Source: Octopus vulgaris
Taxonomy: Eukaryota
Assembly: GCA_951406725.2 (NCBI GenBank)
Contig: OX597838.1
Location: forward strand, 27,032,001-27,096,000
Length of the DNA: 64,000 bases
Direction of reading: 5' to 3'
Shown piece after piece: positions 1,039-37,876 of the stretch. The position numbers were made by a program, and so were the translations under genes. Each line of letters starts with the position of its first letter. Positions within the stretch are counted from its first letter, which is position 1. The notes below the pieces were generated by a model. It made no database searches and was not told where the DNA came from. It was given only the letters and a program-made list of their open reading frames with translations.

Positions 1039-1557
1039 CTATGTTTGTCCCTCCAACATCGCTTGACAACCAACGCTGGTGTGTTTATGTCCCTGTAACT
1101 TAGCGGTTCGGCAAAAGAGACTGATAGAATAAGTACTAGGCGTACAAAGAATAAGTCCTGGGGTCGATTTGTTCAGCTAAAGGCGGTGCTCCAGCATGGC
1201 TGCAGTCAAATGACTGAAACGAACAAAATAGAATAAAAGAAATGTATTTAAGGTTAGCAGACAAGGAATGCTGCTCAAGAAGCTGCCTTCCAAGTCTTAT
1301 GATGTTATCAACCTGATGTATGCAAATTTGGTCAAGGGATGTAACTGTATGTATGTAGTGAATCCGAACAAGGAAGAACGAACAAGAAAAAACAATAATG
1401 CGAGGACACGGTACAAGTGCTGTATTATAAGACGCTCAGGAAAGGAAGGATGTACGTATGCATGTGTCTGTGTATGTATGCATGAATGAATGTATGTATG
1501 AATGTATGTATGAATGTATGTATGTATGTATGTATATATTATGTGTGTATGTATATA

Positions 1558-20040: not shown

Positions 20041-20455
20041 TATATATATATTGGAAGGTTTGGAGATGATGTACAGGTATTATATATTAGAAGAAATGAG
20101 GTAATCAGAAGATCGGATGGTTTATATTTACAGATATTTATTTATATATTACATTTTTTACATATATATCATATCACTTATATATGTATATATATATATA
20201 TGTGTGTGTGTGTACACAAACATATATATAATGTCTGTTCGTTGTAAGCAACCGGGGTGTTCAACCAATGTTTACGTATGTTTATATGCGCGCACACGCA
20301 CACAGATAGATTGATAGATAACGTTACACAACATCCACGTTTGAGTGTGTTAAATTATGAGGTAATAAAAGAGAACCACTATGCTTGAAACACGCGAACT
20401 CACATAAAGAATCTTGGAAACCAAATCCAAAAACGAAATATATCTACATACGTCA

Positions 20456-20528
20456 GGTTTCATGGTGTAGTGGTTATCACGTCTGCTTCACACGCAGAAG
20501 GCCGCGAGTTCGAGCCTCGCCGAAACCT
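20456..20528 (+). tRNA. tRNA-Val(CAC), intronic, possibly a retrocopy
   Basis: Cloverleaf: acceptor GGTTTCA/CGAAACC (one A:C mismatch), D arm GTG..CAC, anticodon arm TCTGC-TTCACAC-GCAGA, T arm GCGAG-TTCGAGC-CTCGC. T6 run at 20534-20539. Confidence 0.85.
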
Positions 20529-20621
20529 GGGAATTTTTTCCGTCCAACCCGTGCTAGCGCGGAAAACGAACGTTAAACGATGATGATGATGATGACATAT
20601 GCATATAATAAATAAAATGCA

Positions 20622-22994: not shown

Positions 22995-23114
22995 GTACAC
23001 GGCCATATCACGTTGAAAGCACCGGTGCTCGTCCGATCACCGAAGTTAAGCAACATCGAGCCAAGTTAGTACTTAGATGGGTGACCGCTTGGGAAACCTA
23101 GGTGCTGTAAGCAT
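22995..23114 (+). rRNA. 5S rRNA copy (probable pseudogene or retrocopy)
   Basis: ACGGCCATATCACGTTGAAAGCACCGG..CGTCCGATCACCGAAGTTAAGCAAC..GTTAGTACTTAGATGGGTGACCGCTTGGGAAACCTAGGTGCTGTAAGCAT. The first 4 nt do not pair with the 3' end, and there is no T4+ terminator directly after it. Confidence 0.9.
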
Positions 23115-24543
23115 ACATTTAAAATAGCGGTGCCCCAGCATGGCCACAGCTCGTGAGCTGAAACTAGATCAAATAAAAAAAATTTTTTTTAAATAAAATA
23201 AAATATGTGTGTGTGTTTATTTATATACACACACACACATATATATTTCAGTTTTGGATTTGGTTTGCAAGATTCTTTATATGAAATTTTAGGAAAATAA
23301 AAATAAGAAATAAGTGGAAATTTTACCAGTGAGTGTGTTACATTATAGGGAACAAAAAGAAAATGACTCTCCTCAGACACAACAGCATATATATATATAT
23401 ATATATATATGATGGGCTTCTTTCAGTTTCTGTCTACCAAATCCACTCACAAGGATTTGGTTAGCCTGAGGCTAAAGTAGAAGACATTTACCCAAGGTGC
23501 CATGCAGTAGGACTGAACCTGGAACTAATACATTATATATGTATATATATATTTATATAATCTTTTGTATTTTGTATAAATGCAGACGTGTAAGTAATCT
23601 ATCTATTATTAAATATGATAATATAAATTACTTCCATGTCTTTGAGTTATGAAACAATCGGTTATGATATTAGGGTTTTTCTTATTGTTAAATAAAAGTT
23701 CATCAAAATATTTCTGTCGTTTATGACTTTATATTTATTTATGATAATAAGATGAGAAAATAAGAGAGGCAATTAATAAATTATTATTTATTAATTAAAA
23801 AACTGACAAACATCCCTTACAGCTGTTTCAATTTCAGACCGTCAGAAAATTAATTTATTAAATTAAAAATTATACAAAATAGGCGGCGAGCTGGCAGAAA
23901 TGTTAGCATGCCGGGTGAAATGCGTAGCCATATTTCGTCTACCGCTACGTTCTGAGTTCAAATTCCGCCAAGGTTGGTTTTGCCTTTCATCCTTTCGGGG
24001 TCGATAAATTAAGTACCAGTTATACACGGGGTCGATATAATCGACTTAATCCGTTTGTTTGTCCTTGTTTGTAGTAAAGAAATAGGTATACAAAATAGGT
24101 GTTCAATTCCTGCTTGTTGAGTAAATGGCTGCAAAACCGTTAACTGATAAAATTTATACATAAAGAACATAGAATAAATAAATAAATATATATATATATG
24201 TATATTTATAAGCTTACAGCTTATAGGCAATCACTGTGAATTGACTAAAGAAAATAGTCTAATATTGGGGCATATAAACCTCGATGAATAAAAGTGGGTT
24301 TTCTATACACATGGGACTGAAACCTACACCTCTATGTTTTTGCGACATGTGAGAACCCCTGGACTGTCATAAATTTGCCATCCCTCAAACCATCCCTCTA
24401 CTTTTCAAATATAAAAACACAAACAACTCAACCAACACCCTCCCCATTTACTCCACTCTGATATACATTATTGTTCCATTTGATAGCATAAATATCTCAT
24501 GGAATGCTGGAGCATCTGTTGATTGCCTCCATTCCAGTGTATT

Positions 24544-36152: not shown

Positions 36153-36399
36153 CATCATCATCATCATCATCGTTTAACGTCCGTTTTCCGCGCTAGCACG
36201 GGTTGGACGGTTTCGACCGGGGTCTGGGGAGCTAGGGACTGCCCCAAGCTCCAGTCTAGTCTGGCAGTGTTTCTACAGCTGGATGCCCTTCCTAACGCCA
36301 ACCACTCCGCGAGTGTAGTGGGTGTTTTTTACGTGCCACCTGCACAGGTGCCAGAGGGGTCTGGCATCGGCCACGTTCGGATGGTGCTTTTTATGTGGG

Positions 36400-37876
36400 G
36401 GGGTGGAGCAGAAATATAGGGGAGCACCAGTGGGGAGGGGTGGTTCAGAGAAATGATGACAGGTTCTTCGGCAAGTAGAACGTAGGATATCAAGAGGGTA
36501 ATGCATGGTGAAATAGCGTATTGAGGAGGGGGGTTCGAAGAGTAGACACCTATAATGGTGGTGGGAGAAACAACATCCGGTATAGATGGAGCAAAAATAT
36601 AGAGATATCCGGTATTGGTGGTGGGGGTGGGCAGGGTGGGTGCACCGCGAATACGCGAAGGTTGAAAATAGATGATAGAGCGAGACTTGGTCGGGCAGAA
36701 TTAATAGAGGAGAAATTAGATACAATAGTTAGATAGATAAATAACAACAGATAGAAAAACATGTATGATTGGTCGAGAAGTGAAGTGAAGTGAAAATAAG
36801 CATTCAAACTTATCTGTGCTCGAGATTATAGCTGCTAGGTGAATGAATGAGAGAGCACATGTTGCTGCCTTAAGTAAAGAAATTGACCGGAACAGGAATT
36901 TTTGGACAAGGCGGAAGTGTATTAAGGGAACAGGCTTCAAAGATGGCGAAGATCGATAGACAAATACGCGAGGGTTGAAAATAGATGATAGAGCGAGACT
37001 TGGTCGGGCAGAATTAATAGAGGAGAAATTAGATACAATAGTTAGATAGATAAATAACAACAGATAGAAAAACATGTATGATTGGTCGAGAAGTGAAGTG
37101 AAGTGAAAATAAGCATTATATATATATATATATAGATAAGAAAGTTGGTTTGTGAAAGCACGTGGTTGAATATATAGAAAATAGTAAAAAGTGAAAAAAC
37201 CACAGAAGGCCCGCTCAAAAAGGTTAAAAAACACATACTTGAGTCAATATGTCTGAAGAATACCACAAATCTTCCTCCCACAATGACACAATTTAGAAGA
37301 AAGACCGGTTTCGCGCCTAGCTCTTCAAACCTCTCACTTTGCTATGCTTATGTTGAGCAGAGTTATCGTTATGTTTATGTTGAAAAGAGTTCCAAATAAG
37401 GGGAGGCAATGAGCGACTTCCTCTGGTGTAAGGGAGACAATCGCTTAAAACCCCTTGCCCCCCCCCCCTGGTGTGAACTTCTCCGCATCAGCACGTTGGA
37501 ATGGCTAAGTCCGGGCCTGCACCTTTCAATGAAGAATGCTTCCTTGTTCAGTCCAACTTGTGTTGATGATCCGATAGCACATTGGTAAAATGGAAAGATT
37601 AAAAATTGCGGTAGTAGTTGCTTTGCGCATTTCTCAATGTGCTCACTAAAAGGTATCATTCTGTATTCTGGGAATGCAATCTGTTGTCGATGCAGTGTGC
37701 ATCTACGTCTGAGTGATAGTCCCGTGGATCCCACGTAGTCTTGGTGGCAGCCCAAGCATTTTATGACATAAATTATGTTTTCAGAGGCACAAGTAAAGTT
37801 AGATTTGATCTTGAATTTCTGTCCCTCTTTGAAGAGGAATTCTGATCCTTCTAGCAGGTTTGGACATGTTGCACAG
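36400..37876 (-). mobile_element. Penelope-like element remnant: GIY-YIG endonuclease plus pLTR-like region
   Basis: Minus strand reads CATCPNLLEG..NFTCASENIIYVIKCLGCHQDYVGSTGLSLRRRCTLHRQQI..EHIEKC..KEAFFIER. A hammerhead-like motif follows at about 37295-37336, with a 150-bp direct repeat at about 36655 and 36967. Confidence 0.85.

What the first reader, a model, noticed from the sequence alone, without database searches (positions are those of the whole stretch)
20456..20595. tRNA-Val plus oligo-T trailer fused directly to an RTE-type 3' tail: a chimeric Pol III retrocopy or nascent SINE
Seen: a full tRNA-Val(CAC) with a short trailer ending in T6 is followed with no gap, in the same orientation, by only the last ~40 nt of the RTE-type tail (CCGTCCAACCCGTGCTAGCGCGGAAAACGAACGTTAAAC-(GAT)n). 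That piece is about one mismatch from the tail end at ~36165-36210(-). The tRNA has an A:C acceptor mismatch and a T discriminator (A73 is usual for Val). Known: U6-L1 chimeras in mammals join Pol III RNAs at their oligo-U to LINE 3' ends, and SINEs are Pol III heads plus LINE tails. Inference: this may be a SINE-birth intermediate made by ligation or template switching.
Basis: partly seen in the sequence, partly recalled or inferred. Interest (0 to 1): 0.7.

Follow-up and report, generated by a model that had tools for sequence, protein, structure and literature searches.

The report
Precursor tRNA captured on LINE tail
An unprocessed valine tRNA copy is joined to the last 39 bases of a jumping gene; it is a single copy, not a new SINE family, but dozens of other tRNAs in this genome are joined to the same tail at the same spot, likely because the jumping gene's copying enzyme stops there and hops onto U-ended small RNAs.

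Summary
Observation confirmed: tRNA-Val(CAC), an 11-nt trailer ending in T6, then 39 nt plus (GAT)5 of a LINE 3' end. The tail belongs to a young single-ORF endonuclease/RT LINE (1095 aa intact copy found; RTE label recalled, not tree-tested). This junction is single-copy, and the T6 terminator lies before the tail, so it is not a SINE and is probably a dead end. It is one of 38 inspected small-RNA/tail fusions (36 tRNA-like, U2, vault-like). All join 1-4 nt upstream of the tail core, at the base of the predicted terminal stem-loop. 16 have 5'-truncated heads. The same head and trailer recur on a second element's tail at unrelated loci, which points to RNA copies. Of 28 young tails cut at this point 8 carry a small-RNA head, all sense; 0 of 70 tails end 5-90 nt further up. 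Best reading: reverse-transcriptase template jump (0.7). Against: no significant target-site duplication, no empty allele seen. T73 is normal here (26 of 26 Val loci). Precedent: vertebrate U6/LINE chimeras. The scan noted this class before on other DNA of this genome.

The parts
20451..20455 (+). short 5' leader of the pre-tRNA (inferred)
   Evidence: Only the last few bases match the upstream of gene-like copies L096/L099; over 30 nt the window matches them at 8-9 of 30 while they match each other at 25 of 30
20456..20528 (+). tRNA-Val(CAC) body, no CCA, one change at position 7 that breaks an acceptor pair
20529..20539 (+). 3' trailer ending in T6 (Pol III terminator), one G shorter than the trailer of gene-like copy L099
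20540..20578 (+). last 39 nt of the LINE 3' UTR, starting at the base of the predicted terminal stem-loop; G>A at 20569
20579..20594 (+). (GAT)5 terminal repeat of the LINE
   Evidence: same repeat ends full-length copies L257-L259, L261
20446..20450 (+). possible 5-nt target-site duplication (second copy 20595-20599); NOT statistically supported
   Evidence: 9 of 36 foreign downstream flanks give a match of 5 nt or more
20389..20451 (.). end of a high-copy repeat directly upstream; the chimera sits in the AT-rich stretch behind it
   Evidence: thousands of contigs per run map here
36160..36430 (-). longer 3' piece of the same LINE (reference for the tail)
22995..23185 (+). second fusion in the window: full 5S rRNA (22995-23113), short spacer, then a different retroelement tail ('tail B')

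Best explanation
This is a tRNA-Val precursor sequence (short leader, body, trailer up to the U-run) joined to the last 39 bases of a LINE, likely inserted as one cDNA when the LINE's reverse transcriptase stopped at the base of its terminal stem-loop and jumped onto the U-ended precursor. Steps: (1) the LINE protein binds the 3' stem-loop and primes at an AT-rich site (inferred from 'stringent' LINEs). (2) It copies the GAT repeats and the stem-loop. (3) It stops in a 4-nt linker in front of a predicted 42-nt GC-rich hairpin, either by pausing or because the RNA was trimmed back to the protected stem-loop (the position is shown, the cause is inferred). (4) It either integrates there (solo 40-nt tails) or continues end-to-end on the 3' end of an abundant nuclear RNA (inferred). 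(5) The insertion is completed with a short or no duplication. The product keeps the A and B boxes and the terminator, so it could still yield a slightly mismatched tRNA, but Pol III would end before the tail, so it is not expected to spread as a SINE.
For: Tail origin: the same end closes intact 1095- and 1101-aa endonuclease+RT ORFs. Recurrence: 33 of 54 T-loop+tail hits have tRNA-like heads, judged by eye. Of 38 fusions inspected, 21 heads were called by Rfam or ARAGORN. Fixed junction: 24 at 1 nt, 11 at 3 nt, 3 at 4 nt upstream of the core, none longer. Tail-anchored test: 36 hits among 2423 exact young tails = 8 internal variants + 28 stem-base cuts, of which 8 have small-RNA heads, all sense, 1 follows another repeat's end, 19 are solo. 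Background: of 70 consecutive young tails 1 ends at the stem base, 0 end 5-90 nt upstream; 0 of 40 longer copies have an Rfam RNA nearby. RNA origin: 16 of 38 heads are 5'-truncated; three look intron-containing by eye (L040, L046, L124); the same head and trailer sit on a different tail at unrelated loci with homology limited to the head (L124/L282, L061/L284, L039/L306). Of the 5 copies of this Val(CAC) subtype, 3 have a retroelement directly after the trailer, each a different one. 32 of 38 heads end in T. Non-LTR RTs jump templates after non-templated addition (PMC8857657, passages).
Against: No significant target-site duplication: outside microsatellites 4 of 24 have 5 nt or more, permutation p 0.22. 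No empty allele was seen (uninformative). The T-loop pattern can only find junctions close to the tail core and cannot see junctions inside it, so the tightness is partly built in; the tail-anchored and background tests reduce but do not remove this. The whole 116-nt 3' end does not fold better than dinucleotide shuffles (z -1.22). The one covarying pair (G-C 10, A-T 71 of 83) is a single subfamily change at a CpG. No copy of this subtype has exactly this body plus trailer without a tail (L096 differs in the trailer, L099 at position 63 and by one G). 6 of 38 heads do not end in T.
Confidence: 0.7

Rival explanations
1. RNA ligation first: the pre-tRNA was ligated (RtcB-like) to a 40-nt LINE fragment cut in the single-stranded linker, and the fused RNA was then retroposed.
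For: Shown for human U6/L1 (PMC6789731, passages). A nuclease cut in the linker would also give a fixed junction and the solo 40-nt tails.
Against: In that paper ligation needs a 2',3'-cyclic phosphate and falls sharply with a 3'-OH; pre-tRNA U-tails are 3'-OH (own knowledge). Heads are very diverse (many tRNAs, U2, vault-like). L114 has 5S + pre-tRNA-Leu + tail in series, with no 5S before 19 other Leu(TAA) copies; this is easier by serial jumps, but it is one case.
Confidence: 0.13
2. Two steps: a tRNA gene or tRNA retrocopy was there first, and a severely truncated LINE later inserted at its T-run, by chance or by a preference for Pol III terminators.
For: No shared TSD proven. Solo 40-nt tails exist (19 of 28). 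This copy is a full-length tRNA with intact boxes.
Against: The window copy lacks the upstream flank shared by the two gene-like copies and their downstream T-rich flank and starts 5 nt behind a high-copy repeat. 8 of 28 stem-base tails have such heads, all sense, against a hand estimate of about 0.001 per tail by chance. Longer LINE copies have none (0 of 40). Gene clusters such as L013-L015 and L026-L030 have no tail.
Confidence: 0.12
3. It is a member or founder of an amplifying tRNA-Val SINE.
For: Head-plus-LINE-tail anatomy as in tRNA/RTE SINEs (PMC3747384, passages).
Against: One copy of the junction. None of the 38 fusions repeats another, apart from one local tandem duplicate, judged by eye. 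T6 precedes the tail. The stem is weakened.
Confidence: 0.04

Closest known systems
U6/L2, U6/Mon-1 (platypus) and U6/RTEX, U6/L2, U6/AnolisSINE2 (Anolis) chimeras; Doucet et al. 2015, PMC4476161 (passages read)
   Same: Small RNA in sense orientation joined to a short 3' piece of a stringent LINE or its SINE; often 5'-truncated; short TSDs (1-9 bp in platypus); template switching proposed, also as the route to SINE tails.
   Different: There the head is U6, with 3 to 40 cases per group. Here the heads are unprocessed tRNAs of many isotypes plus U2 and a vault-like RNA, in an invertebrate, with the junction confined to 4 nt. The passages read report no fixed LINE-side junction.
tRNA/LINE-1 chimeras of primates; bioRxiv 10.1101/2025.02.02.635956 (passages read)
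   Same: tRNA sequence and LINE 3' part in one insertion.
   Different: 21 loci, mostly tRNA halves, antisense, 9-19-bp TSDs, explained by twin priming. Here full or 5'-truncated precursors with trailers, sense.
U6/L1 chimeras made by RtcB ligation; Moldovan et al. 2019, PMC6789731 (passages read)
   Same: Oligo-U end joined to a 5'-truncated LINE.
   Different: L1 part variably truncated, needs a cyclic phosphate on U6, poly(A) LINE.
tRNA-headed SINEs with RTE tails and snoRTE/PlatSINE1 (PMC3747384, PMC5786205, PMC7245038; passages)
   Same: Small-RNA head plus RTE-type 3' end.
   Different: Those are amplified families with a uniform structure. These are separate one-off fusions, most with the terminator still in front of the tail.
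RTE-2_OV of octopus (PMC9115989, passages)
   Same: Single ORF of about 1100 aa with endonuclease, RT and a zinc finger.
   Different: Two of its primers were tested and do not match (one against L259 with up to 3 mismatches; one exact against all 311 loci), and its ORF ends at a microsatellite. So probably another family.

Membership tests
small-RNA/LINE chimeric retrocopy | small RNA and LINE 3' end adjacent, same orientation | tested here: met
small-RNA/LINE chimeric retrocopy | head corresponds to the transcript only (no parental flanks) | tested here: met
   upstream 8-9 of 30 vs 25 of 30 between gene-like copies; trailer matches L099 up to the T-run
small-RNA/LINE chimeric retrocopy | one target-site duplication around both parts | tested here: inconclusive
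   5-nt candidate, not above chance
small-RNA/LINE chimeric retrocopy | empty orthologous site lacking both parts | tested here: inconclusive
   flank is a high-copy repeat, no spanning contig listed
SINE | amplified family with a shared head-tail junction | tested here: not met
   one copy
SINE | Pol III transcript runs through the tail (no terminator before it) | tested here: not met
   T6 at 20534-20539 precedes the tail; sequence only, transcription not measured
SINE | 3' end shared with a partner LINE | tested here: met
RTE-clade LINE (donor of the tail) | single ORF with APE endonuclease and RT, short tandem 3' repeat | tested here: met
   PF03372, PF14529, PF00078 in 1095/1101 aa; (GAT)n end
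RTE-clade LINE (donor of the tail) | RT phylogeny places it in the RTE clade | not tested
   no labelled references were at hand. It is closer to in-genome RTs that look RTE-like to me (bits 95-147) than to the CR1/L2-like group (59-92) or an R4-like ORF (48); these labels are recalled
functional tRNA gene | expressed and charged | not testable with these tools
   boxes and terminator intact, one acceptor mismatch

The most novel reading that the evidence does not exclude
This LINE has a built-in hand-off point: its reverse transcriptase stops at the base of the recognition stem-loop and passes to U-ended nuclear RNAs. The genome thus keeps producing minimal 'tRNA head + 40-nt LINE tail' fusions, hundreds of them with two unrelated tails. 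The minority that lost the terminator (10 of 38 have no run of 4 T before the junction) would be ready-made SINE founders, so SINE birth is limited by terminator loss, not by the fusion step.
Probability: 0.35. Interest if true: 0.7.

Novelty: new variant of a known kind. Interest (0 to 1): 0.45.

Why it matters
Template switching from a LINE 3' end onto a tRNA has long been proposed as the way SINEs get their tails (stated in PMC4476161). I found no report of a population of such first-step products with unprocessed tRNAs in the papers searched (open-access library only). Here there are dozens with one tail and up to 171 pattern hits with another, a donor LINE with intact ORFs, and a junction fixed to 4 nt. 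That makes the hypothesis testable in vitro. In practice, some 'tRNA genes' annotated in this genome are retrocopies (3 of 5 copies of this subtype have a retroelement directly behind the trailer). The single locus itself is most likely inert.

Tried and rejected
Empty-site test with public runs: the upstream flank turned out to be a high-copy repeat and no listed contig spans it; the question stays open. Expression of the junction was not tested. TSD as proof: rejected (p 0.22 outside microsatellites; the 'all' set, p 0.005, is driven by TA repeats on both sides; L104 dropped for lack of a clear repeat end; head starts set by hand). A control pattern for truncation about 15 nt upstream was swamped by C-run length variants (689 hits; the 100 listed show the element's own upstream letters) and was replaced by direct sampling. 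The top-30 RT loci did not include the donor LINE; it was found by tblastn on tail loci. The RT ORF in L150 lies about 6 kb from the tail behind a tandem repeat and is probably unrelated. Relaxed ARAGORN gave unreliable calls and was not used. Window ORF list showed only repeat-derived frames, so the host gene was not identified. Homolog and PDB searches gave no clade label. Identity with RTE-2_OV not supported. T73 as a sign of decay: rejected. Supplements of the papers were not read.

Full report
What is there. The window (G000:C25) holds a tRNA-Val(CAC) at 20456-20528, an 11-nt trailer ending in T6, then at once 39 nt and (GAT)5 that match the end of a longer repeat at 36160-36430(-) with one change. 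There is no CCA. The tRNA differs from gene-like copy L096 only at position 7, a CpG-type change that breaks one acceptor pair. T73 is shared by 26 of 26 Val loci examined, so it is not decay. The host gene was not identified.

Where the tail comes from. tblastn on the fetched loci showed an RT-family C-terminus about 300-400 nt upstream of the tail in many copies. Longer stretches gave intact single ORFs of 1095 and 1101 aa with endonuclease and RT domains, ending about 190 nt before the tail core. The architecture fits the RTE clade, but the label is recalled: no labelled tree was run, and searches give only indirect support. It does not seem to be RTE-2_OV. There are 2423 exact copies of the 27-nt young tail core. 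The 3' end is predicted to fold into a 42-nt hairpin (-19.8 kcal/mol), a 4-nt linker and a terminal stem-loop (-12.9). This fold is only a prediction: z -1.22 against dinucleotide shuffles, with one covarying pair. The piece in the finding starts at the base of the terminal stem-loop.

Is it unique? The junction is single-copy: 1 of 4 exact hits has this head, and BLAST shows no second copy. The type is common. A pattern of T-loop, gap and tail core gave 54 hits, 33 with tRNA-like heads by eye. 51 were viewed in context; 3 were judged from the matched string alone. With six more, and one tandem duplicate merged, I inspected 38 fusions: 36 tRNA-like, one U2, one vault-like. 21 heads were called by a program. 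All 38 keep only 1, 3 or 4 LINE bases upstream of the core (24, 11, 3); 32 end in T; 28 have a run of 4 or more T; 16 are 5'-truncated (head starts set by hand).

Controls. The first pattern favours short junctions, so I also started from the tail. Of 2423 young tails, 36 lack the two A's upstream: 8 are internal variants and 28 are cut at the stem base. Of these 28, 8 have a small-RNA head (7 tRNA, 1 U2), all sense; 1 follows another repeat's end; 19 are solo. Chance would put a T-loop motif there about once in a thousand (hand estimate). Among 70 consecutive young tails on C1, one ends at the stem base, none ends 5-90 nt upstream and 69 are longer. That is at least 0.29% per nt at the stem base against under 0.05% per nt (rule of three). 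0 of 40 longer copies have an Rfam RNA within 1.5 kb. So the stem base is a preferred stop, and capture of small RNAs is tied to it.

RNA copy or gene? Five copies of this Val(CAC) subtype were found. L096 and L099 share 25 of 30 upstream bases and have T-rich flanks, so they look like genes. The window copy shares 8-9 of 30, carries L099's trailer less one G, and starts 5 nt behind a high-copy repeat. The other two copies are followed by tail B and by a whole SINE. Across the genome, the same head and trailer appear on tail A at one locus and tail B at another, with homology confined to the head (three clear pairs of five compared). Some keep introns. This is what copies of nuclear precursors would look like. 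The negative results matter too: a 5-nt duplication flanks the window copy, but foreign flanks match as well in 9 of 36 cases, and the class shows no excess outside microsatellites (p 0.22). No empty allele was obtained.

Mechanism. Best reading (0.7): the RT copies the repeats and the stem-loop, stops in the linker, and jumps end-to-end onto a U-ended RNA, as non-LTR RTs do in vitro (PMC8857657, passages). There is no microhomology between the linker and a U-run, which fits a jump with non-templated bases. Pausing at the upstream hairpin and trimming of the RNA to a protected 40-nt piece cannot be told apart here. Ligation first (0.13) is shown for U6/L1 but needs a cyclic phosphate (PMC6789731, passages). 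Two-step insertion (0.12) cannot be excluded for this one locus without the empty site. A SINE (0.04) fails on copy number and on the terminator in front of the tail; the G>A change also weakens the predicted stem.

Comparison and novelty. It works like the U6/L2, U6/RTEX and U6/SINE chimeras of platypus and anole (PMC4476161, passages). It differs from the antisense tRNA-half chimeras of primates (10.1101/2025.02.02.635956, passages) and from amplified tRNA- or snoRNA-headed RTE SINEs (PMC3747384, PMC5786205, PMC7245038, PMC4494074; passages). A recent octopus repeat annotation has no occurrence of 'chimer' in its main text (PMC13282606). Searches found no report of sense pre-tRNA/LINE-tail fusions at a fixed junction; subscription papers and supplements were not seen. 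Schmitz et al. 2004 on pre-tRNA retropseudogenes I know only as cited. Earlier notes of this scan describe the same class at other loci of this genome; they are unchecked AI notes and were not used as evidence.

Verdict. A real, young chimeric retrocopy and probably a dead end as a SINE; one member of a large family of one-off captures made at a fixed point of the LINE tail. New variant of a known kind; interest 0.45.

Noticed in passing
window 22995-23185 (+): A full 5S rRNA copy (Rfam 99.6 bits) is followed after about 7 nt by a second retroelement tail ('tail B'). A T-loop + tail B pattern gives 171 hits; most of the 100 listed read as tRNA end + trailer + the same tail start.
   Followed up: partly
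L001-L030 (tRNA-Val loci): 26 of 26 tRNA-Val loci examined, with CAC, AAC and TAC anticodons, have T at position 73 instead of the A usually recalled for Val. A possible lineage-wide change of an identity element; not compared with other species.
   Followed up: partly
L020:1563-1651 (-): Vault-RNA-like sequence (Rfam RF00006, full model, E 0.004, below the gathering score) ending in T6 and fused to the same tail at the same base; a lead to this animal's vault RNA gene.
   Followed up: partly
L114:4789-5066 (+): Full 5S rRNA, 14 nt, tRNA-Leu(TAA), trailer, tail in series; none of 19 other Leu(TAA) copies shown has 5S in front. Possible double jump.
   Followed up: partly
L033, around 1427-1500 (+): A tRNA-Ala head that lacks its normal last bases and ends in a trailer like that of the Val gene L099; possibly a third RNA piece (a released trailer) in the fusion.
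   Followed up: no
L007, L009, L019, L022, L024, L025: Whole SINEs start directly behind the T-run of tRNA-Val trailers, same strand.
   Followed up: partly
L040, L046, L124, L282, L301: tRNA-Met, -Lys(TTT) and -Leu(CAA) copies that appear to keep an intron, judged by eye.
   Followed up: no
L259:441-3725 (-), L258:2190-5492 (+): Intact ORFs of the donor LINE carry a PHD-like finger just behind the RT domain (Pfam PF00628, below cut-off), also listed for many homologs; its 3' UTR holds tandem repeats of variable number.
   Followed up: no
L047: Two LINE tails head to head forming a near-perfect inverted repeat.
   Followed up: no
L150/L151: Two distant loci share 99% identical 239-bp tandem repeats upstream of the young tail; possible transduction of a satellite by this LINE.
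   Followed up: no
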